DNA of 64,000 nt from an uncultured Defluviitaleaceae bacterium. GTDB lineage: Bacteria; Bacillota; Clostridia; Lachnospirales; WRBF01. The position numbers and the translations under genes are program-made. The DNA lies in assembly GCA_964533945.1 (NCBI GenBank), contig CAZHPA010000004.1, forward strand, positions 15,180 to 79,179. Reading direction: 5' to 3'. How positions within the stretch are numbered: position 1 is the first letter of the stretch; the number at the start of each line of letters is the position of its first letter. The notes beneath the pieces were generated by a model. It was given only the letters and a program-made list of their open reading frames with translations. It did no database searches and was not told where the DNA came from. Below are positions 51,121-64,000 of the stretch, one piece after another.

Positions 51121-51145
51121 AAGTATTTAAGGGAGGGTGCTAGAA

Positions 51146-51781
51146 ATGGATATATACAAAGTGTTTAATAGTTTGCTTTTACAAAACAGGATATTTAGCT
51201 CGGAAGCAGATTTTCAATTTGCACTAGCTTGGGAAATTAAGGCTGTATATGGTGATAGTGTAAATATCCGATTAGAATATATACCTTGGAAATATAATGA
51301 CAAAATGCATATTGATATTGCCGTCTTCTATCGTAAACATCTTATCTCAATAGAACTTAAATACATTAAAAACAGCTTAAAAATAAAACACCAAGGCGAA
51401 CATATCAAACTAAAAAGGCATACAGCACGCCATATTGGCGCTTACAAATACTTAAAGGATATTGAGCGTATGGAGGGTATAATAAATTCAAAGGAATACA
51501 ATATTAAGAAAGCTTACGCCATTATTTTGACAAATGATTCCGGTTACTGGCGAGATGTTCGAATAAAAAAACAACCCATTGATATGGCATTTAGAATATT
51601 TGAAGGTACAGCCATTTCTGGTAAACGAGAATGGGGAAAAGACGCTGGGGAAGGGACAATAAGAAATCATAAAGACCCCATTGTTTTCTCGGGTAGTTAT
51701 ACGATAAACTGGCAAAAATACAAGCCGGCAAGAGATGTTGGATTCCGGTATACGATTGCGGAAATAAAAAAGGGGATTTAA
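51146..51781 (+). CDS. PD-(D/E)xK nuclease-superfamily-like hypothetical protein
   Basis: The ordered motif SEADFQ ... HIDIAVF ... ISIELKY matches the E / D / ExK pattern of restriction-endonuclease-like folds. ATG at 51146 is 8 nt after GGGAGGG. Confidence 0.5.
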   Translation: MDIYKVFNSLLLQNRIFSSEADFQFALAWEIKAVYGDSVNIRLEYIPWKYNDKMHIDIAVFYRKHLISIELKYIKNSLKIKHQGEHIKLKRHTARHIGAYKYLKDIERMEGIINSKEYNIKKAYAIILTNDSGYWRDVRIKKQPIDMAFRIFEGTAISGKREWGKDAGEGTIRNHKDPIVFSGSYTINWQKYKPARDVGFRYTIAEIKKGI

Positions 51782-52515: not shown

Positions 52516-53061
52516 CATAAAAAACATTACCTAAAACTGTTTATTTCAACATTTTATTTAAGCGCTTTTACGTTTGGCGGAGGATATGTTATAGTTTCTT
52601 TAATGAAGAAAAAATTTGTAGATAATTTAAAATGGATTGAAGAAGAAGAAATGTTAAATTTAATCGCAATAGCTCAAGCTTCCCCCGGAGCTGTTGCCGT
52701 TAACGCTTCCATTTTAATAGGATACCGTATTGGAGGAACTTTGGGGGCATTTATTGCAATATTAGGAACAGTTTTACCGCCGCTTATTATAATTTCTATA
52801 GTTTCTGTGTTTTATGCTTCTTTTCGCAACAACGAAATAATTAGCCGTGCGTTAAAAGCAATGCAACCTGCCGTTGCTGCTATAATATTTGATGTTGTAA
52901 TTAATATGGGGAAGAATACTGTTGAACAGAAAAAGAGTATGGCTATTTTTATTGGAGCTTTTATAGCAAACTATATATTTAAAATTAATGTTATTTATAT
53001 TATTGTAACTTGCGTAGTATTAGGCATTTTTCAAAGAAACGAAAAAGAGGAGAGGGCATGA
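52513..53061 (+). CDS. chrA: Chromate transporter family protein (short CHR, first half of a pair)
   Basis: About 180 aa and polytopic, with the FTFGGGYVIVSLM and IAIAQASPGAVAVN motifs typical of the CHR family. Confidence 0.85.
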   Translation: MHKKHYLKLFISTFYLSAFTFGGGYVIVSLMKKKFVDNLKWIEEEEMLNLIAIAQASPGAVAVNASILIGYRIGGTLGAFIAILGTVLPPLIIISIVSVFYASFRNNEIISRALKAMQPAVAAIIFDVVINMGKNTVEQKKSMAIFIGAFIANYIFKINVIYIIVTCVVLGIFQRNEKEERA

Positions 53062-53141
53062 ACCTTTTGAACACTATTTATGTCATCATAACTTGCATAA
53101 TATTAGGAGTTTTCAAAATAAGCAAAGGAGCAAAAGCATGA
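52987..53141. repeat. Tandem duplication with an 80-bp period covering the chrA-1 3' end and the ATGA stop/start junction
   Basis: 52991-53061 (TTATTTATATTATTGTAACTTGCGTAGTATTAGGCATTTTTCAAAG...GGCATGA) aligns with 53071-53141 (CTATTTATGTCATCATAACTTGCATAATATTAGGAGTTTTCAAAAT...AGCATGA). Confidence 0.8.
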
Positions 53142-53674
53142 TTTACTTAGAACTTTTTGTAAGTTTCTTTAAAATAGGGCTATTTACTATAGGCGGTGGC
53201 TATGCTGCAATACCTCTTATTCAAAATGAAGTTATAGATGTTAATAATTGGTTAACACTAGCACAATTTACAGATTTAATTACAATTGCCGAAATGACAC
53301 CTGGGCCCATAGCAATTAATTGTGCAACATTCGTTGGAATACAAGTTGGCGGCTTTTTGGGTGGCGTTGTTTCAACTATCGGCTGCATTTTTCCTTCTTG
53401 CATAATTGTTTCACTTCTTGCCTATTTATATTATAAATATAAAAATCTTGCAATAATTCAAAAGATTTTAAACAACCTAAGACCGGCTATTGTTGCTTTA
53501 ATTGCTTGCGCCGGATTGTCTATATTAAAGCTTTCAGTTTTAAGCGATTCTTATTCAATTAACGTAAAAGCCATTTTAATATTTATAGCCGTACTGTTTG
53601 CAATTAAAAAGTTTAAATTAAAAAATCCTATAATTGCAATGCTTGTCGCCGGTGTTATAGGAATATTAATGTAA
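53138..53674 (+). CDS. chrA: Chromate transporter family protein (short CHR, second half of a pair)
   Basis: FTIGGGYAAIPLI and IAEMTPGPIAINCATFVG motifs. ATG at 53138 follows AAAGGAG, so the ORF-track start at 53093 is rejected. Confidence 0.85.
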   Translation: MIYLELFVSFFKIGLFTIGGGYAAIPLIQNEVIDVNNWLTLAQFTDLITIAEMTPGPIAINCATFVGIQVGGFLGGVVSTIGCIFPSCIIVSLLAYLYYKYKNLAIIQKILNNLRPAIVALIACAGLSILKLSVLSDSYSINVKAILIFIAVLFAIKKFKLKNPIIAMLVAGVIGILM

Positions 53675-53736
53675 ACTTTTTTGTATTTAATACGTTGTTA
53701 TACATAATACGACATTTATTTAATTACTTTTAATTA

Positions 53737-53766
53737 TTGATATTGTGTCGTAATATGTATTATAAT
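53737..53766 (+). promoter_or_regulatory. Putative sigma-A promoter for the vWA/tubulin-like cluster
   Basis: TTGATA, 18 nt, TATAAT, about 30 nt upstream of the GTG start. Confidence 0.45.
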
Positions 53767-53796
53767 AAAGTATATTTAATCGAAAGAGGGTGCATT

Positions 53797-55839
53797 GTGG
53801 TTAGAAAAATATTATGCTTTATCGTATTTATTTTTAGTGTATATACAGTATATACATACGCTGCTCAAAGCGCAAATCCAAACAATCATATTGATGCCGT
53901 GCTTGTAATTGATACAAGCAATTCAATGAATGGCAACGACCCCATGCACATAGCCGTTGAAGGCGTTAAGCTTTTTATTGATATGTTGGAACATAGCGGC
54001 TCAAGAGTTGGTTTTGTTGGGTTTAACGGAAGCGTTGTTTCTGAAATACCACTTACAGAAATTAACACATTTCAAGATAAAATAGATATTTTAGATAAAG
54101 TAGGCAAAATAAAATATACAGGCTATACAGACATTGGGCTTGCGCTTAAAACGGCAGAATCGCTTTTATTAAACACACAAGATAAAGGCAACAACCAAAT
54201 GATTTTAATGTTTACAGACGGCTTTGTTGAAGTTGACAGTAAAACAGGAAGAACAGAACAACAATCAAATCAGGAAATAGAAGACGTTTTGTCTTCGGCA
54301 ATGTCAAATTACCCTATATACACAATAGGCTTAAATAGCAGCGATAGAGTGGACAAAGATTTAATAGATAAAATAGCCAACCAAACAAGTGCTAAAAGCT
54401 ATATGACAAATAACGCCGAAGACTTGCCTGAAATTTTTAACGAAATTTTCGCAAGGCATATTAAATCAAATGTAATAAATGTAGGTTCAGTTATTGCCGA
54501 TGGAACAAATTATGAAACATTTGACATAAACATACCAAACCCAAACATAGCAGAAGCAAATATTGTTTTACTATCAGACAGCAAATTAATAGACGTAAGG
54601 TTAACAAACCCAAATAATCAAAATATTTTACTAACACAATCAAATGGAATTTATTATTCCAATTCGTCAAAATATTCTGTAATTAAAATTGTTAACCCAA
54701 TGCAAGGGGATTGGGTTTTGCATATTAAAGGCGCTAAGGGCAGCCAAATTAAAGTTAATTTAATTTATAACTACGACATTGTTCTTGAAGCCAAATTGCC
54801 AAAAGATGCAAAAGACGTTGTTAAAGGGGAAACTTTAAACGTTTCGGCTTTTATATCAGACCAAAACGGTACAACGCTTGGCAGTGATTTAATTTCTTCA
54901 TTTAGTGCAGAGCTTAATGTTTTAAATGAAACTGGTCAAATAATTGAAGCCGTTGCTATGAATCATGTTAAAGATAATGAATTTGCTGCAGTTTGCAACA
55001 TTCCAAACTATGATGGGCAAATAAGCATTATTGTAAAAGCCGCAGGTTCAGGGTTTTATAGAGAAAGCCAGCCTATTGTAATAGATTTAGAAAACAAGCC
55101 GCCAAAGCTTGAAAACCCTATATCAAATAAGTTTTATTTTTATTTGCCAATGGCTGTTTTAAATTCAACTATCAACTTAAACGAAGTTTTTAACGACCCA
55201 GATAATTTAGAAGATTTAGAATATAAGATTACAGCAGATAAAGATTACATAAGCTTCGATGAGTCAAACGGAAAAGCAAAAATAAAAACAAGCAAAATAT
55301 TAAATTTTGGAACAGCGGAAGTAATAATTGAATGCATAGACCCAGCCAAAGAAAAGGCAGAAGCAAGCTTTAAAATAATTTTAATACCAATTTTGCCTTT
55401 TGGCTTGGTAATTTTAATAGTTATAGGTTTGATAGCAATAAAAGCCGGAAAGCAAAAAAACATAAGGCTATCGGGCTACATTCAATGCATACTTTCCGTT
55501 GACGGTGTTAACGGAGCAAGCGAAATAACAAATACGCAGGCATATAAAGGCATAGTTAATATGTCGCAGTTTGTAGGCGAGCAAGTTTTAGAAAAATTGC
55601 CAGAACTTAAAAAAATTTCTTTTTGTCAATTAACACAATCAGGGAGCAAATTAGGTGAATTAGGCGGGGAAGCTTGGGAATTTAAAAATAAATCACGCTA
55701 CAAAATAAATAAAATGATGCTTGAATTAAAAGACGAAAAGTTTGTTATTGTTAAAGGAGAAACTTTTGAAATAAGAGAATTAAGAAGCAGTGATGATGAA
55801 AATGAAGGGGAAGTTTTGATAGTAACCTTTATAAAGTAG
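53797..55839 (+). CDS. Type-I membrane protein: signal peptide, extracytoplasmic vWA domain with complete MIDAS, beta-rich stalk, single TM segment, and a cytoplasmic tail domain of about 130 aa
   Basis: GTG at 53797 is 6 nt after AAAGAGGG. The signal peptide is VRKILCFIVFIFSVYTVYTYA/AQS. MIDAS elements are DTSNS (53911-53925), GYTDIG and MFTDG. The TM segment is ILIPILPFGLVILIVIGLIAI, followed by KAGKQK. Confidence 0.8.
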   Translation: MVRKILCFIVFIFSVYTVYTYAAQSANPNNHIDAVLVIDTSNSMNGNDPMHIAVEGVKLFIDMLEHSGSRVGFVGFNGSVVSEIPLTEINTFQDKIDILDKVGKIKYTGYTDIGLALKTAESLLLNTQDKGNNQMILMFTDGFVEVDSKTGRTEQQSNQEIEDVLSSAMSNYPIYTIGLNSSDRVDKDLIDKIANQTSAKSYMTNNAEDLPEIFNEIFARHIKSNVINVGSVIADGTNYETFDINIPNPNIAEANIVLLSDSKLIDVRLTNPNNQNILLTQSNGIYYSNSSKYSVIKIVNPMQGDWVLHIKGAKGSQIKVNLIYNYDIVLEAKLPKDAKDVVKGETLNVSAFISDQNGTTLGSDLISSFSAELNVLNETGQIIEAVAMNHVKDNEFAAVCNIPNYDGQISIIVKAAGSGFYRESQPIVIDLENKPPKLENPISNKFYFYLPMAVLNSTINLNEVFNDPDNLEDLEYKITADKDYISFDESNGKAKIKTSKILNFGTAEVIIECIDPAKEKAEASFKIILIPILPFGLVILIVIGLIAIKAGKQKNIRLSGYIQCILSVDGVNGASEITNTQAYKGIVNMSQFVGEQVLEKLPELKKISFCQLTQSGSKLGELGGEAWEFKNKSRYKINKMMLELKDEKFVIVKGETFEIRELRSSDDENEGEVLIVTFIK

Positions 55840-55863
55840 AAAATAAAAAGGAGTTGTAAGTTA

Positions 55864-58800
55864 ATGCCATTAAACGAAACACTTAAAACCCATTTAAAAA
55901 GCAATTTAATGCGTGGTGTCGGAAGTGGTTTGCATTTAAAAAGCAGAAATTCAAAGCTTATAGATGCCCCAATTTTAGTTATAGGTTTAGGCGGAACAGG
56001 CGCAAACTCCTTAATTCGCCTAAAAAGCCTTATTAACGAAAGAATTAATTCAGATTTTAACAACGAAAAGCCTAAAAATATTGAATATTTAGCTATAGAT
56101 ACCGATATGTCAACAAAAGATTTTCAACATAAAGGCGTGTCTTTTTCAAAGGCAAATTCTGAAGTTTGCATTTATGCACATGCAAATCTAGGAAGAACAT
56201 ATGAAGATTTATGCAAGCGCCCCGAAAGCTTGCCTCACATTACAAGCTGGATTTCTCACGGCATGGACGTTAGCAAAATTACAAACGGCGCAGGCGGCGT
56301 TAGGCAAGTTGGAAGATTTTTAATGTTTAAAGAGTTTAACGACATTGAAAACAAAATTACAACTAAAGTTGAATCTATTTTAAACGGATATTCCGCCGAC
56401 AAAATGGTTTTTGTATTTATTGCAACAGGCGTTTCGGGCGGAACAGGAAGCGGAACTTTTTTAGATATTCCATATATCGTTAAAGAAATTTTAAGGCGAA
56501 AAGGGTTTAATGCCCAAATGCTAGGTTTTATATTTTTGCCCGACGTTAATATTAGCGTTATAGATAGAAATGACCACGCCAAAGTTCGTGCTATTAAGCG
56601 CAACGGCTTTGCTGCTTTAAAAGAACTAGATTTTTTAATGAACCTTGGCAATGAGGGTAACAGAGAACGCTTTGTTCAGGAATACAGCAGCAACTTTAAA
56701 GTTGATTACGGTGAACCTCCATATGATGTTTGCCATTTAGTTTCTACTATAAATAAAAGAGGATTAATAACTAACTCTATAGACGACTGCATGAACGTTG
56801 TTTCTGAAACAATTGCAAACTTTATTTCAGGCGAAAGTGGCGTTATATCAGGAGTTTCAGGAGGTTCAACAGATGATTTTTCCGTTGCACAATATATTTC
56901 AAATATTTCAGATACCATTAATACGTTTGTTGCAGGGCTTTCTGTTAAATATCCAATCAATTATAAATATTTGGCAATCGGCAGTTCATCAGGTGTTTTG
57001 CCTATGGACGACATATTAAACTACATTGCAAGCACATTATTTGAACGCATATATGAAATATACAACCGTTTGCCTGAAAAGTCGGAAGTTTTAAACTTTG
57101 CAAATATGCTTGGAATAAACAGAGAAGGAATTTATGTTGCTGTATGCAAAAACAGCGAATTGCCAACGTATGGGTACGATTTCGATACGCTAAAAGCAAA
57201 CCCAAACATTTTAAGACTTGCTTTTGAAGAAAGCATTGAAAAATCTTTATCTATAATCAAAGAAAACGTTAGCGATTTCATAGATTCCTTTAAAGAAAAC
57301 GCAAACAAAAAAATAGAAGAAGTATTTTTAGATAACAAAAAAGGCCCATACTTCGCTTCAAGATTAATTAGTTCTATAGAAAACTATTGCTTGCTTGCCC
57401 ATATTAAAGATTTAAGAAATAAGCTAGTGCTTGAAAAAGTAAATGATGCCGATATGGAAAGGCTTAGAAAAAATGTTGAATTAACACAACGAAAAATTGC
57501 AACTTCTGAACCTTTGCTTGGGTTTGGCAAAAATGGGCTTGCTGATAATCACATTAAAGCTTGCAATGAATATTATTCAAAGCGAATGTTTAATAACGTT
57601 TTTGACGGCATGATTAAATGCTTTGAAGCATTTTACAAATATTTAAATGACAAAAACGATGATTTATTCGATTTGCTTGCAGAAACAATTACATTACTTA
57701 AAAATATATTTGCAGATTATGGAAGCATTGACGGCGACATTTCCCTTACAAGTGAAGAAAGTACAACAACTTTAACATGGGACATAATAGATAAAAAAGT
57801 TTTAGCCGAAACTGTTAAGTTAATGATAAACGACGAAAGCGAAGTTAAATTTAACACAGTTATTGACGAATTTATTAAAGAACTTAACGCTAATTCCGCC
57901 ACATGGCTAAACTGCTCAAAGCCAAACGCTGTAGCAAAGCTAAACGATTTTATTAACAATAGGTTCGACAACATTCTTAATAAATCGCTTGACTTTTATA
58001 TAAGTAAGATTGCCAACGACGATAAAATTAGAATAGACAGCGAAGCACAGCAAATAACAGAAAAGCTTGCTAAAAATGCACAAGTTATGTTTCCTGTTAA
58101 CGTTTTCGGCGATAATTTAAACGCTTCTTTGTATAGCTATATGTCTGTTCCGTCTAACGCCGACATAATTAAAAGCAAACTTGAAGCCGATACAGGCGGC
58201 AAAATGATTAAACAAAGCATTATAACAAACCGTGTTTTTATGCTTAAAGTTAATTTGGTTTACCCTTTAATGGCATATAGAGAGCTTGAAAGCTATGAAG
58301 CGGAATACGAAAAGTTTTCGGAAGAAAGAGCCGGCATAGGAATGCATTTATACGAAAACAACACTAGAAATTGGAGGGAATTACCTTCTCCAATATATGA
58401 CAATGCTTGGTCACCAACATATAAAAACGAGCGCCTTAAAGCTTCAAACAACAAAATTAGAAGCTTATTTGATAAAGCGCTTAAATATAAATATATACAA
58501 TGGGACACTAAAGAAAACAAGGTTGCTTGCAAGTTTAAGCAGGAAATTAATATAAAGACGTTTTTAAATGAATGCAACATAGAAAATATTAACGACATAG
58601 ATTCAATAAGTGTTGCCAGCGCAAATTTGGCACTTAATAAGCTAAAATCTATTTTAGCCGAGGATAGTTGGCAAGGCGTTGAATATCTTTACGATTACAA
58701 GCTTAAAGATGGCGAGCCCGATTTGGAATTTTCGAAAGCGATTTTTATAAATATGCCAACGCTTAATAAGCATATGCAAAAAATGATTGACCAGCACGAA

Positions 58801-59253
58801 CAGTTGCTTGAAATTGAGCAAAAGCTTATGAAAATACAAGGAAGCGTTGCCGTTTATTCCCATTTTGCCGCCGTTTTATATACTTCTTTAATTAGAAAAA
58901 GCAGAGGCATATATAAATACACAGATAACAAACAATTAGAGAAAATTTTGCTTGAACCTAACACAAATGAGCTTGAATATATAGAATACTATTTGTATAA
59001 GGCATTCAAGCAAATGCCCGATGCCGAACGCGAATATTTAAACAGCACAGCAAGAAAAACTATAAACGAATGCAACGACGACGAATTTAAAAAATGCATA
59101 GACGTTATGGAAAACTTTGAAAATATGTTCAAAGAAAAGACCCAAAAGCTTACAACAACATATTTATCTGAATTTGAAGGAGACAAAAAGTCAAGCTTCT
59201 ATCAAGTTATGCGTGAAGAAATGAAAAAAGCGCTTGAAAAATATTCTGAATAA
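55864..59253 (+). CDS. Giant (1129 aa) tubulin/FtsZ-superfamily-like GTPase with a long helical C-terminal extension
   Basis: T1-like loop VIGLGGTGANS (55984-56007), T3-like NGAGGVRQVGR (56284-56316), and T4 tubulin signature GVSGGTGSGT (56428-56457). A possible T7/H8-like NGFAALKELDF follows. There is no signal peptide or TM segment. SD AAAGGAG. Confidence 0.75.
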   Translation: MPLNETLKTHLKSNLMRGVGSGLHLKSRNSKLIDAPILVIGLGGTGANSLIRLKSLINERINSDFNNEKPKNIEYLAIDTDMSTKDFQHKGVSFSKANSEVCIYAHANLGRTYEDLCKRPESLPHITSWISHGMDVSKITNGAGGVRQVGRFLMFKEFNDIENKITTKVESILNGYSADKMVFVFIATGVSGGTGSGTFLDIPYIVKEILRRKGFNAQMLGFIFLPDVNISVIDRNDHAKVRAIKRNGFAALKELDFLMNLGNEGNRERFVQEYSSNFKVDYGEPPYDVCHLVSTINKRGLITNSIDDCMNVVSETIANFISGESGVISGVSGGSTDDFSVAQYISNISDTINTFVAGLSVKYPINYKYLAIGSSSGVLPMDDILNYIASTLFERIYEIYNRLPEKSEVLNFANMLGINREGIYVAVCKNSELPTYGYDFDTLKANPNILRLAFEESIEKSLSIIKENVSDFIDSFKENANKKIEEVFLDNKKGPYFASRLISSIENYCLLAHIKDLRNKLVLEKVNDADMERLRKNVELTQRKIATSEPLLGFGKNGLADNHIKACNEYYSKRMFNNVFDGMIKCFEAFYKYLNDKNDDLFDLLAETITLLKNIFADYGSIDGDISLTSEESTTTLTWDIIDKKVLAETVKLMINDESEVKFNTVIDEFIKELNANSATWLNCSKPNAVAKLNDFINNRFDNILNKSLDFYISKIANDDKIRIDSEAQQITEKLAKNAQVMFPVNVFGDNLNASLYSYMSVPSNADIIKSKLEADTGGKMIKQSIITNRVFMLKVNLVYPLMAYRELESYEAEYEKFSEERAGIGMHLYENNTRNWRELPSPIYDNAWSPTYKNERLKASNNKIRSLFDKALKYKYIQWDTKENKVACKFKQEINIKTFLNECNIENINDIDSISVASANLALNKLKSILAEDSWQGVEYLYDYKLKDGEPDLEFSKAIFINMPTLNKHMQKMIDQHEQLLEIEQKLMKIQGSVAVYSHFAAVLYTSLIRKSRGIYKYTDNKQLEKILLEPNTNELEYIEYYLYKAFKQMPDAEREYLNSTARKTINECNDDEFKKCIDVMENFENMFKEKTQKLTTTYLSEFEGDKKSSFYQVMREEMKKALEKYSE

Positions 59254-59280
59254 ATTCAAATAAAATTTTGGGAGGATAGT

Positions 59281-59682
59281 ATGTTAAAAAAATCCCCAAA
59301 CCAAAGCCTGTGTCCATATTATTATATGGGCGGAGAGCTTCATCCGTTGAAATATGGAAGTTATTTTAATGATAAAACGGCTTTATTTAACATTATAGAT
59401 GCCGAGGAGCAGTTTATATTAGAATCATTCGGAATAAATAATAGTTGTATTTGGATTGATTTATATGAAACAGCGCTTGACCACAAAGTTATTAAAAAGC
59501 TTAGTATGCATTTAAATAATATAAATCATAAAATACGCAAGCTTTGCTTTGTAGGTTGTTCATGGGTTAATAAAAATAAGCTAAAAAATAAAATAAAAAT
59601 TAAAAATATGGATTTATCCAAACAAATTAAGTTTTTTTCAGACCCCAAATTGGCTAAACAGTGGTTAGTTGGAAATAGGTGA
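59281..59682 (+). CDS. Small hypothetical protein of the cluster (133 aa)
   Basis: SD GGGAGG lies 7 nt upstream. No motif I can name with confidence. Confidence 0.5.
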   Translation: MLKKSPNQSLCPYYYMGGELHPLKYGSYFNDKTALFNIIDAEEQFILESFGINNSCIWIDLYETALDHKVIKKLSMHLNNINHKIRKLCFVGCSWVNKNKLKNKIKIKNMDLSKQIKFFSDPKLAKQWLVGNR

Positions 59683-59686
59683 GTTT

Positions 59687-61609
59687 ATGTTAAAGCTTAC
59701 GCACCCTGTGCTTTATGTGTTTTTTGATGAACAATCAAAAGACACATTAAGGCTTCTTTGCAATGAAAAGTTTCAGAATACGCAAAGCATTGCTTATTTA
59801 AATATAAAAAGTAAAGACGACTTGGATTTTGATACATTAGTTAATATCAATAGAAGGTTTCTTGAAAAAGAATATTCAAGACCTTTTGAAAGGCGAATAT
59901 ATTTTATTGTTGATTCAAACAAAAAGCTTCTTGTTTCTTTATCAGATGCTGTTTTATTTATTAAAAGCTTTTTTGAAAATATAAACATAACACCAATAAT
60001 AGATATTTTCGCACTTACAGATGAAGCCAAGCTTCCAAATTTAAACATTCAGCAAGCAATTACTAATACATACGACGAACTTAAATTTTTGGCAACAAGT
60101 AATTTATGCAATATGGTATATATAATTTCCAACTTAAATAGCAAAGGCGTATTAATTAATGACTATATGCAGTTTTATCAAGCAATTGTTTTATGCTCCA
60201 TTTTAAAAGATTGTTCTAAAACAGGCTATGATGAGTTAAACTTTTTGCAAAACTGCGAAGCCAAAAATAAAGACGGCTATTTTTACACAGTTGGTATGAA
60301 AAAAATTAGTAAGCCTATAGAAATTTTAAGCTCTGTAATTCTTAAACAAATAATTGATGAAAATAGCATAATTTACGAAAAAAGTAAAGATAGTAATATT
60401 GTTGCAGAAATGCTTGAAAGCTTTTTAAAAACTATTGATGAAATATTTAAGGCAGCCGAACAAAAATATAGCTTAAACGTTAATTCTCTTGCAATAAACA
60501 TAGAAATGCAAAACAGGCTGTTTAATTGCAACGGGGATGCTTTAGATGCTTGCTTTGGAGAAAGCTATGTTGATTTATATTACGAAATTAACTACGAAAA
60601 AGAATGCGGCGTTATAGCTTCAAAAATTGTTTATGAACACTGCAAAACACTAAAAGAAGCCGTTTATGGCTGTATTGAAAATGAAAACGTTGGTTTTTTT
60701 GCAGTTAAGCGTATGCTTTACAAACTTAAGAGTGAGCATTTGCCTGAATTAAAAGAGCGTATAAAAGAAGAAATATTTAATGCAGAAAGTATGTTGCAAA
60801 CATGGCAAAATGAACAGCCTGTAATTACTAAAGGTTTGAAAAAAGTAAATGCATTTGGCAATGCGCTTTTTTTCCCTTTTGAGTTGGCACAGTTTTACAT
60901 AGCCCTTAAAAACGACTACTTTAAATGCAAAGCAAAACTTAGCGCTTTATTTCAATACGAAACCGTACTGCTTGAATTTATAAACAACTTTAAAAATATA
61001 TGCGAAAAGCTTAGTTTTAATTGCGATAAATTAAACGGATTTATAAAATTAAGCCTTAGCGAAAAACCAACGCTAATCGCTGAAAACTTCGAGCAATATT
61101 ATTCAAATAAAGCTTGTATGTATATTGCAAATAATTTTAAAAGCTACTTTAAACAACTATATAAAGATTTTTATAAATTAGGATTTGAAAATATCGAAGC
61201 ATTGTACAAAGAGTGCAACGCATATATTAGCAAGCTTATAGGAAGTGATAGCTTTAACTTAGATATATACAGCGAAATATACGAGCGGATTAAAAGTAAT
61301 ATAAGTACAGAATTTAAAACCGAAGAAAGCATAGCAAGACTTTTAATCGAAGAAATAAAAGAGGACAAAATTTATTTTTCAAAGCTTACATCGGCAGCTA
61401 ACTTTTTTGATAGTGTTTGCCTAATTACAGGTGATGGACAACTTGTTGAAAAACTTTCCGAAAAAAATACATTGGGTCATTTAAATGTATTTTTTGATTT
61501 ATTTCTTAACCTTAATAATTTTAATGAGGGCGAACAGCTTGATGTAGTATACTTTATTGGGAAATTTTCAATAGAACAAATGCATTATTCAAACCTATAT
61601 AAGCTATAA
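59687..61609 (+). CDS. Hypothetical cytoplasmic protein of the cluster (about 640 aa)
   Basis: ATG at 59687 is 4 nt after the upstream stop, and AGGTGAG overlaps that stop. TTG at 59669 is an alternative start. The N-terminus alternates beta and alpha segments, and the remainder looks helical. Confidence 0.55.
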   Translation: MLKLTHPVLYVFFDEQSKDTLRLLCNEKFQNTQSIAYLNIKSKDDLDFDTLVNINRRFLEKEYSRPFERRIYFIVDSNKKLLVSLSDAVLFIKSFFENINITPIIDIFALTDEAKLPNLNIQQAITNTYDELKFLATSNLCNMVYIISNLNSKGVLINDYMQFYQAIVLCSILKDCSKTGYDELNFLQNCEAKNKDGYFYTVGMKKISKPIEILSSVILKQIIDENSIIYEKSKDSNIVAEMLESFLKTIDEIFKAAEQKYSLNVNSLAINIEMQNRLFNCNGDALDACFGESYVDLYYEINYEKECGVIASKIVYEHCKTLKEAVYGCIENENVGFFAVKRMLYKLKSEHLPELKERIKEEIFNAESMLQTWQNEQPVITKGLKKVNAFGNALFFPFELAQFYIALKNDYFKCKAKLSALFQYETVLLEFINNFKNICEKLSFNCDKLNGFIKLSLSEKPTLIAENFEQYYSNKACMYIANNFKSYFKQLYKDFYKLGFENIEALYKECNAYISKLIGSDSFNLDIYSEIYERIKSNISTEFKTEESIARLLIEEIKEDKIYFSKLTSAANFFDSVCLITGDGQLVEKLSEKNTLGHLNVFFDLFLNLNNFNEGEQLDVVYFIGKFSIEQMHYSNLYKL

Positions 61610-61763
61610 GCGGTAACTTAATATAACATATTTTAACTTAGAAACAAATAAGCAAATACACTATTTCAACCTATACAAACTATAAGGGAAACTTAACATA
61701 ATAATTTTAATTTAAAAGCAGGTAAATAAATGCATTATTTTAACCTATACAAAATGTAAATGG
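61578..61763. repeat. Tandem repeat of about 75 bp (2.4 copies) beginning in the last 10 codons of the 640-aa gene and ending just before the next start codon
   Basis: Copies are anchored at 61580 (ATGCATTATTCAAACCTATATAAGCTATAA), 61656 (ATACACTATTTCAACCTATACAAACTATAA) and 61730 (ATGCATTATTTTAACCTATACAAAATGTAA). Confidence 0.8.
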
Positions 61764-63035
61764 GTGATTACTTTGAAAAAAATATTAGATATACCGCTTT
61801 TGCTATTTACAGCACTAGCAGCTTTAATTTCTTTTTTTGTCGGGGAAATGCTGCTTAAAGCTTTTTGTGAAAGTATAGATAACATAGCTTTAATGGGTAT
61901 ATATTTTTGCGCTGTTGGCTCAATTATAGTTTTGTTTACAAATATTTGCGCCTATAAATTAAGCCCAATTGCAAAAATGCTGCCTGCTCCTAATGCTTTT
62001 AAAAAATCGGCGCTTCTTTTTGGCTTTTTAGTAGCTTTACTTTTATTTTTGTTTGGCTGTCTTTTTCAATTTTTATATAGCTTTGATAAAAAAGAGTCAA
62101 AAAGTTCAAACTTAAACTATATAGTTGCAATAGATAATTCGGGTAGCATGTTAAATACAGACCCATTATTTAAACGATACACCGCATTAAAACAGCTCTT
62201 TGAATCTATGGCTTCTAATAAAAAAGGCAAAAAGCAAAACCTTGGAGTATATGTATTTACAGATGGAAACGAAAAAGTATTTTCAATGCAGGAAATAACA
62301 AGTAATCATGTAAATCAATTTGATAGCATATTTTCACAGCATATGGTATCAAACGGTGGAACTAACATTATGAAAGTTCTTGAAGCTATAGCAGAAGACC
62401 CAGACTTAACAGAAAATACAAATATCGTTTTAATCTCAGATGGAGAAAGCCCAGTATATGACGATACATTGGAAAAATTAAAAGAGAAAAGCATTCGTGT
62501 TGATACTGTGGGTGTTTTTGAAGCCGAACCCGACAACGCCTTGCGAAAAATTTCAACAGAAACAGGCGGAACATATTTTAATATAGATAAAATCGAACAA
62601 TTAACAGGCGTTTTAAATAACATAACTACTTTAAAAATGGAAGACCGGCTGTTAACAGCACGCCGCCTTGATTTGGAAAATTCGGTTAATTACATTGTTA
62701 TGCATTTAGCTTTTATATTTTTGCTCGCGCTAATAATAAAAATAATTCAAGCTTTAATTATGGACATAAAAAGCGTTAGGGCAGCTTTGTTTTCACAAGC
62801 ACTTTGCTTTAGCTTAATTTCTTCTTTACTTATGGAAGCTTTGTTTTTAAAGACAGAACTTAGCGAAAGCGTCGTACGCTGTATTGTAATTGCATTTATT
62901 TCGCTTTTGGTGCTTTTAATTGGGAAAGAACAAACAAATATTATAAATTTCGGTTCTGCCAGTAGCATTAACAGCGCAAGCTTCGGCTTTAACAGAGAAT
63001 ACGTAAACAAAGGGAAACAAAAAGTTTTAAAATAA
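61764..63035 (+). CDS. Polytopic membrane protein with a vWA domain (complete MIDAS) inserted between TM3 and TM4
   Basis: Three N-terminal TM segments, MIDAS DNSGS (62133-62147) with GGTNI and LISDGE, three C-terminal TM segments and a basic tail. The start is GTG 61764 or TTG 61773, and the SD is weak. Confidence 0.75.
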   Translation: MITLKKILDIPLLLFTALAALISFFVGEMLLKAFCESIDNIALMGIYFCAVGSIIVLFTNICAYKLSPIAKMLPAPNAFKKSALLFGFLVALLLFLFGCLFQFLYSFDKKESKSSNLNYIVAIDNSGSMLNTDPLFKRYTALKQLFESMASNKKGKKQNLGVYVFTDGNEKVFSMQEITSNHVNQFDSIFSQHMVSNGGTNIMKVLEAIAEDPDLTENTNIVLISDGESPVYDDTLEKLKEKSIRVDTVGVFEAEPDNALRKISTETGGTYFNIDKIEQLTGVLNNITTLKMEDRLLTARRLDLENSVNYIVMHLAFIFLLALIIKIIQALIMDIKSVRAALFSQALCFSLISSLLMEALFLKTELSESVVRCIVIAFISLLVLLIGKEQTNIINFGSASSINSASFGFNREYVNKGKQKVLK

Positions 63036-63056
63036 TTAGATTTGGGAGGTGTTTTT

Positions 63057-63725
63057 GTGGAGTTAGACATAGTTAATGTTTTTAAAGACGAGGAGCAATC
63101 GTTTTTTATAAAAAATTTAAACGGCAAAGTTTTAGAAAGTGGAATAATTATGCTAAATTGGGATTGGCCTGAAGTGCATTCGGATATGGACGGAGTTTAT
63201 ATATTTGAAATTAAAGACGAAAGCGAAGATTTGGAAACACTTGTTGAACGCTTTAACGAAATGGAAACACCCCCAATATATATACCACGGAAAGCTTTTG
63301 GCGGAGAAAAATTTAAATGGCGAGAAGCAATGAAAGAAAAAAAACTGCAATTAAAACTTTTCCCTGTTAAAACAAATAAGTATAAAGCTATTATATATAG
63401 GCAAACATCTGGAAACTGCACGCAAGTTTTTTATAAGCCCGTAAGCTTAAAAAGAAAAGTTTTATATAGGCATATTAATTTTAAAACTAAAATAGCAACA
63501 TTCGAGTTCGAGAAAAAAATGCTTTTTCTTTTGAATGAATTGCCAATAGATTGTTTGCTCTTTTGCAAATATAATAAAAAGACAATGGTTCCAATTTGCT
63601 ACTACCCAGTTAATTTAGAAGTTTTATGCAATTCATCTTACGAAATTGCAATTGAAAGCAGCTGCAACATTGATTTAATTTGTAACGATAAATATAACGG
63701 CGCTATTGTAGTTAAAGACTTTTAG
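63057..63725 (+). CDS. Hypothetical protein of the cluster (about 222 aa)
   Basis: GTG at 63057 is 6-7 nt after GGGAGGTG. No motif recognised. Confidence 0.5.
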   Translation: MELDIVNVFKDEEQSFFIKNLNGKVLESGIIMLNWDWPEVHSDMDGVYIFEIKDESEDLETLVERFNEMETPPIYIPRKAFGGEKFKWREAMKEKKLQLKLFPVKTNKYKAIIYRQTSGNCTQVFYKPVSLKRKVLYRHINFKTKIATFEFEKKMLFLLNELPIDCLLFCKYNKKTMVPICYYPVNLEVLCNSSYEIAIESSCNIDLICNDKYNGAIVVKDF

Positions 63726-63758
63726 AAGTCTTAGAAAACTTGGAAAGGAGAAAATTTT

Positions 63759-64000
63759 ATGGGCAGAGAAGTTAAATGTTTTTTCTGTTTTGAATACTTT
63801 AAGCCAGAAGAAGCGCACTTTAGGGCAAAAAAGCATATTAAAAAAATAGATAGCCTAAGCGAAGACGAGTATGTCGTTGATGAAAAATTAAAAGCTTACT
63901 ATAAAAAATTTTTGCAATATGATGATGACAGTGCAGAAAGTGCCGCAAGGCTTCTTCCAACGTTTAAAATAGACCAAAACCGAAAAATTGTTGAAGTTAG
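63759..64000 (+). CDS. Hypothetical protein, 3' partial (runs off the window), absent from the ORF track
   Basis: ATG at 63759 is 8 nt after AAAGGAG. The frame is open for 80 codons to the window end. The N-terminus is MGREVKCFFCFEYFKPEEAHFRAKK. Confidence 0.45.
   Translation, partial: MGREVKCFFCFEYFKPEEAHFRAKKHIKKIDSLSEDEYVVDEKLKAYYKKFLQYDDDSAESAARLLPTFKIDQNRKIVEV

What the first reader, a model, noticed from the sequence alone, without database searches (positions are those of the whole stretch)
53737..64000. Cluster of at least seven genes pairing a giant tubulin/FtsZ-like GTPase with two outward-facing vWA membrane proteins: candidate uncharacterised system
Seen: seven consecutive + strand genes behind their own TTGATA-18-TATAAT promoter. 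Intergenic gaps are 24, 27, 4, 154, 21 and 33 nt, and six of the seven genes have a Shine-Dalgarno sequence. The products are:
- a signal-peptide vWA protein with one TM segment and a cytoplasmic tail;
- a 1129-aa cytoplasmic protein carrying FtsZ/tubulin T1, T3 and T4 loops;
- a 133-aa protein;
- a protein of about 640 aa;
- a 6-TM protein with an embedded vWA domain;
- a protein of about 222 aa;
- a further gene cut by the window edge.
None of the usual partners is present: no TubR/PhuZ-type segregation partners, no FtsA/ZapA-type division genes, and no kinase or phosphatase as in TerY-type triads. Established knowledge: the motif [SAG]GGTG[SA]G is the tubulin signature, and DxSxS..T..D is the vWA MIDAS. 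From memory, divergent tubulin-like proteins next to vWA genes have been catalogued bioinformatically (a Pfam 'Tubulin-like' family), but I know of no experimentally assigned function and cannot verify this here. Inference: this is a transmembrane apparatus in which extracellular metal-dependent ligand binding is coupled to a cytoplasmic GTP-dependent polymer. Possible roles are envelope or membrane remodelling, adhesion-linked signalling, or a phage/conflict system.
Basis: partly seen in the sequence, partly recalled or inferred. Interest (0 to 1): 0.88.

Follow-up and report, generated by a model that had tools for sequence, protein, structure and literature searches.

The report
Tubulin-like, vWA and GTPase gene cluster
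This is a real nine-gene operon that pairs a giant tubulin/FtsZ-like GTPase with two outward-facing vWA membrane proteins, but comparative-genomics papers from 2010 and 2020 already catalogued the system, and its function has still not been tested experimentally.

Summary
An AlphaFold model of the 1129-aa protein (pLDDT 88) matches only FtsZ, CetZ, TubZ and tubulin structures.

The cluster is not unknown. It is an FtsZl1 operon (Makarova & Koonin 2010). More precisely, it is the Firmicute "tubulin theme" of GAP1-N2-type DO-GTPase systems (Kaur et al. 2020).

The same contig continues past the window edge. The cut seventh gene is a zinc-ribbon DO-GTPase, followed by two GAP1 genes, making nine genes in all.

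The order vWA, tubulin-like, G4, TM-vWA, G6, DO-GTPase, GAP1 is exact in 61 of 85 loci.

New details from this work:
- The 640-aa protein is a diverged paralog of the tubulin-like protein that lacks the GTP-binding motifs.
- The 133-aa gene is an unrelated insertion specific to this lineage.
- The 154-nt gap is a degenerate tandem duplication of the 3' end of g4.

GAP1, G6 and G4 evolve much faster than the tubulin-like protein and the GTPase. Synteny around the cluster is lost quickly. There is no defence-island, plasmid or phage association.

The function is inferred only. I rate it a new member of a known kind, of moderate interest.

The parts
53737..53766 (+). Sigma-70-type promoter-like site, TTGATA-18 nt-TATAAT, 30 nt upstream of the g1 start
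   Evidence: It is the best-scoring site in 53000-64000 (11 of 12 positions) and lies in the intergenic region after the chromate-transporter gene. This is a consensus match only. It is not evidence that the site functions.
53797..55839 (+). g1 (V1): signal peptide, extracellular MIDAS vWA domain, beta-sandwich stalk, one TM segment and a cytoplasmic tail of about 130 aa (680 aa from GTG 53797)
   Evidence: VWA (PF00092) E 8e-18 and VWA_2 E 6e-16. MIDAS motif DTSNS, signal-peptide-like N-terminus and a TM segment at residues 527-545. Across 24 family members: VWA in 24, GBD_Hemicentin in 18, MG2 in 10 and YtkA in 1. A vWA gene lies next to the tubulin-like gene in 84 of 85 loci.
55864..59253 (+). 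g2 (TUB): 1129-aa cytoplasmic FtsZl1 / Tubulin_2 GTPase, with an FtsZ/tubulin two-domain core (about residues 30-400), long helices and an alpha/beta C-terminal region
   Evidence: Tubulin_2 (PF13809) E 2e-65. AlphaFold2 with an 87-sequence alignment gives pLDDT 87.8 and pTM 0.76. The top Foldseek PDB hits are all FtsZ, CetZ, TubZ or tubulin (probability 1.00, E down to 2e-6, about 365 aligned columns). The T1, T3, T4 and T5 loops and the H7 motif NGFAALKELD are 95-100% invariant. No TM segment is predicted.
59281..59682 (+). g3: 133-aa gene, a lineage-specific insertion and not a core member of the system
   Evidence: It is found only in this genome's contigs among the 85 loci. It has no Pfam, PADLOC, NCBIfam or PHROG hit. 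An exhaustive search finds 77 representative relatives of about 130 aa. The two relatives I looked up sit in unrelated contexts, one next to a serine recombinase and one among housekeeping genes.
59687..61609 (+). g4 (G4): 640-aa fast-evolving paralog of the tubulin-like protein that lacks the GTP-binding motifs (a 'pseudo-tubulin')
   Evidence: No Pfam hit, and word-seeded search finds only the protein itself. An iterative HMM finds the family directly downstream of TUB in 85 of 85 loci. hhalign of the G4 family against the TUB family gives probability 93.4%, E 3.8e-8 and 578 collinear columns. The N-terminal parts alone give E 2.9e-4 and the C-terminal parts E 2.3e-3, while negative controls give E of 0.14 or worse. 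The GGTG and SGGTGSG motifs are absent across the family.
61570..61753 (+). Degenerate tandem repeat (74-nt period, 2.4 copies) made of the g4 3' end and two decayed copies of it; it accounts for the unusual 154-nt gap between g4 and g5
   Evidence: TRF score 226 with 79% matches. The three-copy alignment has 80% column identity and includes the motif AACCTATAYAARCTATAA, which encodes 'NLYKL*'. No Rfam match.
61764..63035 (+). g5 (V2): 423-aa polytopic membrane protein with three TM segments, an extracellular MIDAS vWA domain, then two or three more TM segments
   Evidence: VWA E 3e-12. MIDAS motif DNSGS, five strong TM segments plus one weaker one, and a K/R distribution that places the N- and C-termini inside and the vWA domain outside. 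It occupies the V2 position in most loci.
63057..63725 (+). g6 (G6): 222-aa cytoplasmic, beta-rich, fast-evolving protein with a conserved L-x-W-x-W-P motif; candidate for the FNIII-type component of GAP1-N2 systems
   Evidence: The family is present in 84 of 85 loci, always just upstream of the DO-GTPase gene. The FNIII assignment is not established. The AlphaFold2 model failed (pLDDT 32), and there were no significant Pfam or PDB sequence hits. The only support is faint precomputed Fn3_SaeA_6th hits in the longer Clostridium paralogs.
63759..64000 (+). g7 (DOG): 5' end of a 462-aa zinc-ribbon DO-GTPase2 gene, cut by the window edge. On the same contig it is followed by g8 (GAP1-N2 + GAP1-M, 486 aa) and g9 (GAP1-M plus C-terminal TM segments, 1016 aa), and then by an unrelated gene
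   Evidence: Contigs L001 and L086 match the window with 0 mismatches over 13,271 nt and extend it. Pfam scores: DO-GTPase2 31.7 bits (cut-off 27); GAP1-N2 37.9 and GAP1-M 34.8 bits (cut-off 24); g9 GAP1-M 31.7 bits. C7, C10, C125, C128, the Walker A motif, DxxGE and [ST]KxD are 100% conserved in 81 sequences. In virtual window coordinates, g7 ends at about 65147, g8 spans about 65173-66633 and g9 about 66673-69723.

Best explanation
The locus is a complete nine-gene operon. It belongs to the Firmicute 'tubulin theme' of GAP1-N2-type DO-GTPase systems (Kaur et al. 2020), which are also FtsZl1 operons (Makarova & Koonin 2010).

Shown here:
- Two membrane proteins carry MIDAS vWA domains, and sequence-based topology places them on the outer face of the membrane.
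- A 1129-aa cytoplasmic protein has an intact FtsZ/tubulin GTP-binding core.
- It is paired with a paralog that lacks the GTP motifs (G4).
- A beta-rich protein (G6), a zinc-ribbon TRAFAC-type GTPase with the Walker-B glutamate (DO-GTPase) and two GAP1 proteins, one of them membrane-anchored, complete the set.
- The tubulin-like protein and the DO-GTPase are the slowly evolving core. GAP1, G6 and G4 evolve fast.

Inferred mechanism:
- The fast-evolving parts (GAP1, G6 and the extracellular vWA/beta-sandwich modules) recognise a trigger at or near the membrane. Following Kaur et al., the most likely trigger is an invading phage or other foreign element.
- The DO-GTPase-GAP1 pair acts as a GTP-dependent threshold switch.
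- Switching licenses GTP-dependent co-assembly of the tubulin-like protein with its pseudo-tubulin partner into a polymer near the membrane, tethered through the vWA-protein tail or the GAP1 TM segments.
- This polymer is the effector. It could contain the invader, remodel the envelope or arrest the cell, rather than degrade anything enzymatically.

Identity of the system is about 0.95 certain. The conflict or immune role is about 0.45.
For: Identity:
- Pfam Tubulin_2 at 2e-65, VWA in two genes, and DO-GTPase2, GAP1-N2 and GAP1-M all above their gathering scores.
- The FtsZ/tubulin fold comes from a high-confidence model.
- The gene order V1-TUB-G4-V2-G6-DOG-GAP1 is exact in 61 of 85 loci, and each family is present in 78-85 loci.
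- The architecture matches the text of PMC7159879 section 29 and PMC2875224.

Switch: the Walker A motif, DxxGE, [ST]KxD and four cysteines are 100% conserved.

Effector pair:
- All GTP loops of TUB are invariant, and they are absent in G4.
- G4 and TUB are homologous by hhalign (E 3.8e-8), with clean negative controls.

Conflict-like signatures:
- In locus pairs with 95-100% TUB identity, the medians are GAP1 75%, G6 83% and G4 85%, against TUB 98% and DOG 98%.
- Flank synteny collapses. Only 16% (upstream) and 5% (downstream) of pairs at 85-95% TUB identity share a flank gene.
- There are lineage-specific additions: g3, an extra G6-DOG-GAP1-DOG module in Clostridium, and a divergently transcribed zinc-ribbon/TM gene in Bacillales.
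Against: - I found no experimental data on any member of this system.
- None of the nine proteins hits PADLOC or PHROGs, apart from one weak PHROG hit that falls on the g5 vWA domain.
- 142 immediate neighbours from 50 non-redundant loci show no defence-island signal. They are heterogeneous housekeeping and accessory genes, with only a few PADLOC hits that look mostly like generic-domain cross-hits.
- The tubulin-like protein has no match among 72,556 plasmids, and only one weak fragment among 50,697 phage records.
- The flanks in this genome are housekeeping genes: PPDK, a corrinoid adenosyltransferase, chromate transporters and, from its opening residues only, an RNase HI-like gene.
- There is no recognisable toxic or enzymatic effector.
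- Fast evolution of some subunits and loss of synteny are also compatible with a non-immune accessory envelope system, and I ran no housekeeping-gene control for the synteny decay.
- GTP binding, polymerisation and all protein-protein contacts are inferred, not shown.
Confidence: 0.5

Rival explanations
1. This is a housekeeping or accessory machine for membrane remodelling or vesicle biogenesis, as Makarova & Koonin proposed in 2010. The tubulin-like polymer would deform or organise the cytoplasmic membrane, anchored by the vWA membrane proteins and regulated by the GTPase. No foreign element would be involved.
For: - Most components are at or in the membrane: g1, g5 and g9 have TM segments.
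- The system is chromosomal and absent from plasmids and phages.
- The neighbours are not defence genes.
- The promoter is of the housekeeping sigma-70 type.
- This is the published prediction in PMC2875224.
Against: - The system sits in a different genomic place in nearly every species. GAP1, G6 and G4 evolve much faster than the core. Both patterns are unusual for a conserved physiological machine.
- No lipid-binding or membrane-curving domain was recognised.
- There is no experimental support.
Confidence: 0.27
2. This is a surface-sensing or adhesion signalling device that works like an integrin. Extracellular MIDAS vWA domains would bind cell-wall, matrix or neighbouring-cell ligands. They would be coupled, inside-out or outside-in, to a cytoplasmic polymer under GTPase control, serving social or developmental behaviour such as biofilm formation or sporulation.
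For: - There are two outward-facing MIDAS vWA domains, and V1 has a hemicentin-like arrangement of a vWA domain followed by a GBD/MG2 beta-sandwich.
- Kaur et al. report a significant association of GAP1-N2 systems with organisms that have a multicellular habit.
- The retrieved loci come from Paenibacillus, Bacillus and relatives, Clostridium, Brevibacillus, Lutispora and Defluviitaleaceae. From my own knowledge, most of these are endospore formers.
Against: - No ligand is known.
- The fast-evolving parts are mostly cytoplasmic (GAP1, G6, G4), while the extracellular V1 is relatively conserved (93% identity in close pairs).
- No developmental regulator or sporulation-type promoter was seen.
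Confidence: 0.15
3. This is a DNA-segregation or cell-division paralog of the TubZ, PhuZ or FtsZ type.
For: It shares the FtsZ/tubulin fold. TubZ and phage tubulins are among the structural hits.
Against: - There is no TubR-like DNA-binding partner and no centromere-like repeat array.
- There are no FtsA or ZapA-type genes.
- It is not found on plasmids.
- It is always embedded with vWA, DO-GTPase and GAP1 genes.
- The protein is 1129 aa with an unrelated C-terminal region of about 700 aa.
- Makarova & Koonin note that these genomes typically also carry a conventional FtsZ.
Confidence: 0.03

Closest known systems
GAP1-N2-type DO-GTPase-centric system, tubulin theme, Firmicute version (Kaur, Burroughs, Iyer & Aravind 2020, eLife 9:e52696)
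   Same: It has a DO-GTPase with an N-terminal zinc-binding motif and the Walker-B glutamate, and a downstream GAP1 with N2 and M domains. It has two tubulin-domain genes with helical C-terminal regions. It has two vWA genes, one with a beta-sandwich (YtkA-like) stalk and the other multi-TM with an extracellular vWA domain. It also has a small fast-evolving beta-rich component.
   Different: - GAP1 is split or duplicated into a soluble 486-aa gene and a TM-anchored 1016-aa gene. The Defluviitaleaceae locus L006 shows the same arrangement.
- A 133-aa unrelated gene is inserted between TUB and G4.
- The divergently transcribed zinc-ribbon/TM gene found in 60 of 85 loci (mostly Bacillales) is absent.
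- The FNIII nature of G6 could not be verified here.
- I find that the second 'tubulin' lacks all the GTP-binding motifs. The passages I read do not state this.
FtsZl1 (FtsZ-like 1) operons; Pfam Tubulin_2 PF13809 (Makarova & Koonin 2010, Biol Direct 5:33)
   Same: It has an N-terminal FtsZ-like GTPase domain followed by long helices and a C-terminal domain, and a total length of about 1100 aa. It is linked in an operon to MIDAS-intact vWA proteins and a divergent P-loop GTPase. Clostridium kluyveri, cited in that paper, carries a homologous cluster.
   Different: There is no OmpA-family protein and no Ser/Thr kinase in this version. The AlphaFold model aligns to essentially whole FtsZ core chains (about 365 columns). 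The 2010 sequence analysis could align reliably only up to helix H5.
TubZ/TubR (plasmid) and PhuZ (phage) tubulin-like segregation systems
   Same: They share the FtsZ/tubulin fold and GTP-binding signature.
   Different: There is no DNA-binding adaptor or centromere. The system is chromosomal. The protein is three times larger, and its partners are membrane vWA proteins and a GTPase switch.
alpha/beta-tubulin and BtubA/B heterodimers (functional analogy only)
   Same: Two paralogous tubulin-fold subunits are encoded side by side. Only one has a canonical, conserved nucleotide site.
   Different: G4 has lost the nucleotide-binding loops altogether, whereas (from my own knowledge) alpha-tubulin still binds GTP. 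No evidence of heterodimerisation was obtained.
TerY-P triads, BatA/BatB and MoxR-vWA systems
   Same: They have bacterial vWA domains with MIDAS motifs. There are weak NCBIfam hits to BatA and BatB.
   Different: There is no kinase/phosphatase pair and no MoxR AAA+ ATPase. The similarity is confined to the generic vWA domain.

Membership tests
GAP1-N2-type DO-GTPase system (Kaur et al. 2020) | A TRAFAC-clade DO-GTPase with a conserved glutamate in the Walker B motif | tested here: met
   g7 hits PF19993 DO-GTPase2 at 31.7 bits (cut-off 27). GxxxxGK[ST], DxxGE and [ST]KxD are 100% conserved in 81 family members.
GAP1-N2-type DO-GTPase system (Kaur et al. 2020) | N-terminal zinc ribbon(s) on the GTPase | tested here: met
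   C7xxC10 and C125xxC128 are 100% conserved. Whether they form one split zinc ribbon or two was not resolved.
GAP1-N2-type DO-GTPase system (Kaur et al. 2020) | A GAP1 gene (GAP1-N2 + GAP1-M) immediately downstream of the DO-GTPase gene | tested here: met
   g8 hits GAP1-N2 at 37.9 bits and GAP1-M at 34.8 bits (cut-off 24). g9 hits GAP1-M at 31.7 bits. GAP1 follows DOG in 78 of 85 loci.
GAP1-N2-type DO-GTPase system (Kaur et al. 2020) | A protein with rapidly evolving FNIII repeats | tested here: inconclusive
   G6 is fast-evolving, beta-rich and carries an LxWxWP motif. But the AlphaFold2 model failed (pLDDT 32), and the Pfam and PDB searches were negative. The only FNIII signal is faint precomputed Fn3 hits in longer paralogs.
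Firmicute tubulin theme of GAP1-N2 systems | Two genes encoding tubulin domains fused to C-terminal coiled-coil or helical regions | tested here: met
   g2 is clear by Pfam and by fold. g4 is supported by hhalign at 93.4% probability and E 3.8e-8, with clean negative controls, and it is present in 85 of 85 loci. The g4 assignment rests on profile comparison only.
Firmicute tubulin theme of GAP1-N2 systems | Two vWA genes: one fused to a YtkA-like domain, the other multi-TM with an extracellular vWA domain | tested here: met
   g1 has a vWA domain plus a beta-sandwich stalk. Across the family, GBD_Hemicentin hits 18 of 24 members, MG2 10 of 24 and YtkA itself only 1 of 24. g5 has a 3TM-vWA-3TM layout with the vWA domain outside by the positive-inside rule.
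Firmicute tubulin theme of GAP1-N2 systems | [quoted passage not shown] | not tested
   Here g9 ends in TM segments. I did not analyse the composition of the GAP1 C-termini.
FtsZ/tubulin superfamily | GTP-binding loops T1 (GGTG), T3 and T4 ([SAG]GGTG[SA]G) | tested here: met
   G41xGGTG46, G142AGGxRQxGR151 and G192GTGSG197 are 98-100% conserved in 87 sequences.
FtsZ/tubulin superfamily | The two-domain FtsZ/tubulin fold | tested here: met
   The model has pLDDT 87.8. The 50 best PDB matches listed are all FtsZ, CetZ, TubZ or tubulins, at probability 1.00 and about 365 aligned columns. TM scores are modest (0.30-0.45 on the target).
FtsZ/tubulin superfamily | A catalytic T7-loop acidic residue and GTP-dependent polymerisation | not testable with these tools
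   E254 and D256, at the end of helix H7, are 100% and 95% conserved and are candidates. Their position relative to a neighbouring subunit's nucleotide could not be examined. Assembly needs biochemistry.
Known anti-phage defence systems (PADLOC-DB v2) | Any component matches a model of a known or candidate defence system | tested here: not met
   None of the seven window-encoded proteins has a hit at E of 0.1 or better. g8 and g9, which lie beyond the window, were not scanned against PADLOC. The neighbours show no defence-island signal.
TubZRC / PhuZ segregation systems | An adjacent DNA-binding adaptor (TubR) and centromere repeats, with a plasmid or phage location | tested here: not met
   No such gene is present in the cluster. 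There are no matches in plasmids and only one weak phage fragment.

The most novel reading that the evidence does not exclude
The GTP-binding tubulin-like protein and its GTP-motif-less paralog form an obligate heteropolymer, a bacterial counterpart of the alpha/beta-tubulin principle. This polymer would be physically tethered to two extracellular MIDAS receptors and gated by a zinc-ribbon GTPase with GAP1. That would make it an integrin-like signalling cytoskeleton spanning the membrane, whose assembly is itself the output, either as immune containment or abortive arrest, or as envelope remodelling. It would be a new functional class of prokaryotic cytoskeleton.
Probability: 0.25. Interest if true: 0.85.

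Novelty: new member of a known kind. Interest (0 to 1): 0.45.

Why it matters
FtsZl1 proteins are among the most divergent members of the FtsZ/tubulin superfamily. I found no paper that tests what they do.

A compact, complete nine-gene operon is a usable template for experiments. It has a clear active/degenerate tubulin pair, a GTPase switch, and two membrane proteins whose MIDAS vWA domains are predicted to face outward. Possible experiments include heterologous expression, polymerisation assays, phage challenge and localisation.

If the polymer turns out to be an immune effector or a receptor-coupled cytoskeleton, that would add a new function to bacterial tubulin homologs. It would also test the 2020 prediction that these systems limit infection in social or multicellular bacteria. 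The locus itself adds little conceptually beyond the published catalogues.

Tried and rejected
- Structure of G6 (222 aa): the AlphaFold2 model built on an 11-sequence alignment was unusable (pLDDT 32). Pfam scans of 25 family members and of five longer paralogs, and a PDB profile search, all returned nothing useful. The FNIII identity stays open.
- Homologs of g4: word-seeded search found only the protein itself, and pairwise BLAST of g4 against g2 was not significant. Homology appeared only with family profiles.
- Defence hypothesis checks: PADLOC (window-encoded proteins) and PHROGs (all nine proteins) were negative. The defence-island test on 142 neighbours was negative. The plasmid and phage searches were negative.
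- g3 as a fragment of a neighbouring gene: rejected. G4 aligns to TUB from its first residue, and TUB is full length. g3 also has free-standing relatives of about 130 aa elsewhere.
- The 154-nt gap as a regulatory RNA or internal promoter region: there is no Rfam hit. It is a decayed tandem duplication of the g4 3' end.
- TubZ/FtsZ-type segregation or division role, and a TerY-type triad: rejected because the defining partners are absent.
- Experimental literature: four full-text searches found none for FtsZl1, Tubulin_2, DO-GTPase or GAP1.

Full report
**1. Checking the observation**

The seven + strand ORFs are present as described. The intergenic gaps of 24, 27, 4, 154, 21 and 33 nt reproduce exactly.

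TTGATA-18-TATAAT at 53737-53766 is the best promoter-like match in 53000-64000, at 11 of 12 positions. The region as a whole has no more such sites than shuffled sequence. The finding's start coordinate, 53737, is this -35 box. The probable g1 start is GTG 53797 behind GAGGG. That start gives a textbook signal peptide, MVRKILCFIVFIFSVYTVYTYA|AQS.

Shine-Dalgarno sequences are clear for g1, g2, g3, g6 and g7. The one for g4 is weak, and g5 has none.

Pfam gives the following:
- g1: VWA, 8e-18
- g2: Tubulin_2 (PF13809), 2e-65
- g5: VWA, 3e-12
- g3, g4 and g6: no hit

Both MIDAS motifs (DTSNS and DNSGS) and the tubulin T1 and T4 signatures are present. The T3 loop is present as well.

Topology:
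- g1 has a signal peptide, a vWA domain, one TM segment and a tail of about 130 aa.
- g5 has three TM segments, a vWA domain and then two or three more TM segments. Its lysine/arginine distribution places the vWA domain outside the cell.
- g2 has no hydrophobic segment.

**2. Is g2 a tubulin/FtsZ fold?**

An AlphaFold2 model of g2, built on an 87-sequence alignment, is confident (mean pLDDT 87.8, pTM 0.76). All 50 best Foldseek matches listed in the PDB are FtsZ, CetZ, TubZ or tubulins. They have probability 1.00, E down to 2e-6, and about 365 aligned columns, which covers essentially whole FtsZ core chains. TM scores are modest, at 0.30-0.45 on the target.

After residue 400 or so the model shows long helices, including one spanning 556-623, and then an alpha/beta region. 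I could not obtain a fold match for that region.

In 87 homologs the T1, T3, T4 and T5 loops and the helix-H7 motif NGFAALKELD are 95-100% invariant, so GTP binding is expected.

**3. Extending the cluster**

The exact g2 protein lies on Logan contigs that match the window with 0 mismatches over 13,271 nt and continue past position 64000.

- The cut seventh gene encodes a 462-aa DO-GTPase2 (PF19993, 31.7 bits against a cut-off of 27).
- It is followed by g8, 486 aa, with GAP1-N2 (37.9 bits) and GAP1-M (34.8 bits).
- Next is g9, 1016 aa, with GAP1-M (31.7 bits) and C-terminal TM segments.
- After g9 a new gene starts with 'LRTVEIYTDGACS'. From its opening residues alone I read this as RNase HI-like.

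The operon therefore has nine genes. In g7's family the Walker A motif, DxxGE (the DO-GTPase glutamate), [ST]KxD and four cysteines are 100% conserved.

**4. Co-conservation**

A scan of species-representative genomes found at least 550 confirmed relatives, and I kept 80 loci. The closest are Defluviitaleaceae MAGs at 41% identity. The rest are mostly Paenibacillus, Bacillus and relatives, Clostridium, Brevibacillus and Lutispora.

I ran iterative HMM searches seeded with each cluster protein. The number of loci with a hit, out of 85:

| Family | Loci with a hit |
|---|---|
| TUB (g2) | 85 |
| G4 | 85 |
| G6 | 84 |
| vWA (g1 and g5; the two searches hit the same ORFs) | 84 |
| DO-GTPase (g7) | 83 |
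| GAP1 (g8, g9) | 78 |
| g3 | 2 (this genome's own contigs only) |

The order V1-TUB-G4-V2-G6-DOG-GAP1 is exact in 61 of 85 loci. Most of the others are truncated contigs or expanded variants.

**5. The unannotated genes**

*G4.* The G4 family aligns collinearly with the TUB family in hhalign: probability 93.4%, E 3.8e-8, 578 columns, with G4 residues 1-640 matching TUB 30-802. Comparing domains separately, the N-terminal parts give E 2.9e-4 and the C-terminal parts E 2.3e-3. Crossed comparisons and unrelated-family controls give E of 0.14 or worse. G4 lacks GGTG and SGGTGSG throughout the family. G4 is therefore the 'second tubulin' that Kaur et al. describe, but in a degenerate form without the GTP motifs.

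*G6.* G6 is beta-rich with an LxWxWP motif. Its presumed FNIII identity could not be confirmed.

*g3.* g3 has 77 representative relatives of about 130 aa. The two I looked up sit in unrelated contexts, one beside a serine recombinase and one among housekeeping genes. g3 is an insertion, not a core part of the system.

*The 154-nt gap.* The gap between g4 and g5 is a decayed tandem duplication of the 3' end of g4, with a 74-nt period, 2.4 copies and 79% matches.

**6. What is known**

Makarova & Koonin (2010, PMC2875224) defined the FtsZl1 family. [quoted passage not shown] They described its operons with MIDAS-intact vWA proteins and a divergent P-loop GTPase, and they predicted a role in membrane remodelling.

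Kaur et al. (2020, PMC7159879) defined DO-GTPases and GAP1. They state that about 52% of GAP1-N2 neighbourhoods are centred on tubulin-domain genes. They also state that the Firmicute versions have two tubulin-domain genes and two vWA genes, one fused to a YtkA domain and one multi-TM with an extracellular vWA domain. They predicted conflict systems in which the GTPase-GAP1 pair is a switch and the tubulins form multimeric effector assemblies.

The V1 family here shows a vWA domain followed by beta-sandwich hits: GBD_Hemicentin in 18 of 24 members, MG2 in 10 and YtkA in 1.

Four full-text searches found no experimental study. None of the proteins hits PADLOC (window-encoded proteins only) or, beyond one weak hit on the g5 vWA domain, PHROGs.

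**7. Evidence on function**

Points that favour a conflict-type role:
- Evolutionary rates differ sharply between components. For locus pairs with 95-100% TUB identity, median identities are:

| Component | Median identity |
|---|---|
| TUB | 98% |
| DOG | 98% |
| V1 | 93% |
| V2 | 90% |
| G4 | 85% |
| G6 | 83% |
| GAP1 | 75% |

- Flank synteny collapses quickly. At 85-95% TUB identity, only 16% of pairs share an upstream flank gene and 5% share a downstream one. At 70-85% it is 0%. I ran no housekeeping-gene control for this.
- There are lineage-specific additions. Clostridium has an extra G6-DOG-GAP1-DOG module. A divergently transcribed zinc-ribbon/TM gene is present in 60 of 85 loci, mostly Bacillales.

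Points against:
- 142 immediate neighbours from 50 non-redundant loci show no defence-island signal.
- The protein is absent from 72,556 plasmids and essentially absent from phages.
- The local flanks are housekeeping genes.
- No enzymatic effector is present.

**8. Verdict**

The identity of the system is secure, at about 0.95.

The most likely mechanism is inferred, not shown. Fast-evolving recognition parts would feed a DO-GTPase-GAP1 switch. That switch would license GTP-dependent assembly of the TUB/G4 pair into a membrane-tethered polymer, and the polymer would be the effector. I put an immune or conflict purpose at about 0.45, membrane remodelling at about 0.27, and adhesion or developmental signalling at about 0.15.

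The locus is a new member of a computationally catalogued kind that has not been studied experimentally. Interest is moderate (0.45). The details added here are the degenerate tubulin partner, the full FtsZ-like core seen by structure, the rate asymmetry, the negative defence-island test, the split GAP1, the g3 insertion and the tandem-duplicated 3' end of g4.

Noticed in passing
window 61570-61753: The unusually long 154-nt gap between g4 and g5 is a 74-nt-period tandem repeat (2.4 copies, 79% matches). It consists of the 3' end of g4 and two decayed copies of it, each still showing the 'NLYKL*' codons.
   Followed up: yes
window 59281-59682 (g3); loci L089 640-1056 and L091 4889-5290: The 133-aa gene between TUB and G4 belongs to a small family of free-standing proteins of about 130 aa, with 77 representatives. 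In one contig a relative sits near a large serine recombinase and sigma-70/HTH genes, which looks like a mobile element. In another it sits among housekeeping genes. Its function is unknown.
   Followed up: partly
e.g. L005 6850-7788 (-) and L012 4886-6667 (-): In 60 of 85 related loci, mostly Bacillales, a protein of about 315 aa with a zinc ribbon, TM segments and a helical domain is transcribed divergently 100-500 bp upstream of the vWA gene. In 33 loci a protein of about 590 aa lies further upstream. Neither has a Pfam hit, and both are absent from the window. I did not see them mentioned in the passages of the two papers that I read.
   Followed up: partly
L003 1834-8219; also L024, L028, L063, L084: Clostridium versions carry an extra upstream module of a long G6 paralog (334-448 aa), a DO-GTPase, GAP1 (about 887 aa) and a second DO-GTPase. 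Their systems therefore have three DO-GTPases and two GAP1 genes.
   Followed up: no
window 51137-51781: A 214-aa ORF lies between the pyruvate phosphate dikinase gene and the corrinoid adenosyltransferase gene. It has no precomputed Pfam hit. By eye, 'HIDIAV...SIELKY' resembles a PD-(D/E)xK nuclease motif. I did not verify this.
   Followed up: no
L086 13617-16667 (virtual window coordinates about 66673-69723): The second GAP1 gene (g9, 1016 aa) ends in a cluster of TM segments with a weak CD20-like Pfam hit (E 0.0035). This suggests that one GAP1 copy is itself anchored in the membrane.
   Followed up: partly
phage record MT836542.1, 6937-7770: This was the only phage-collection match to g2. 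It is an unannotated 9.8-kb 'Bacteriophage sp.' fragment from human faeces, with 26.7% identity over the N-terminal tubulin-like domain (E 8e-9).
   Followed up: no
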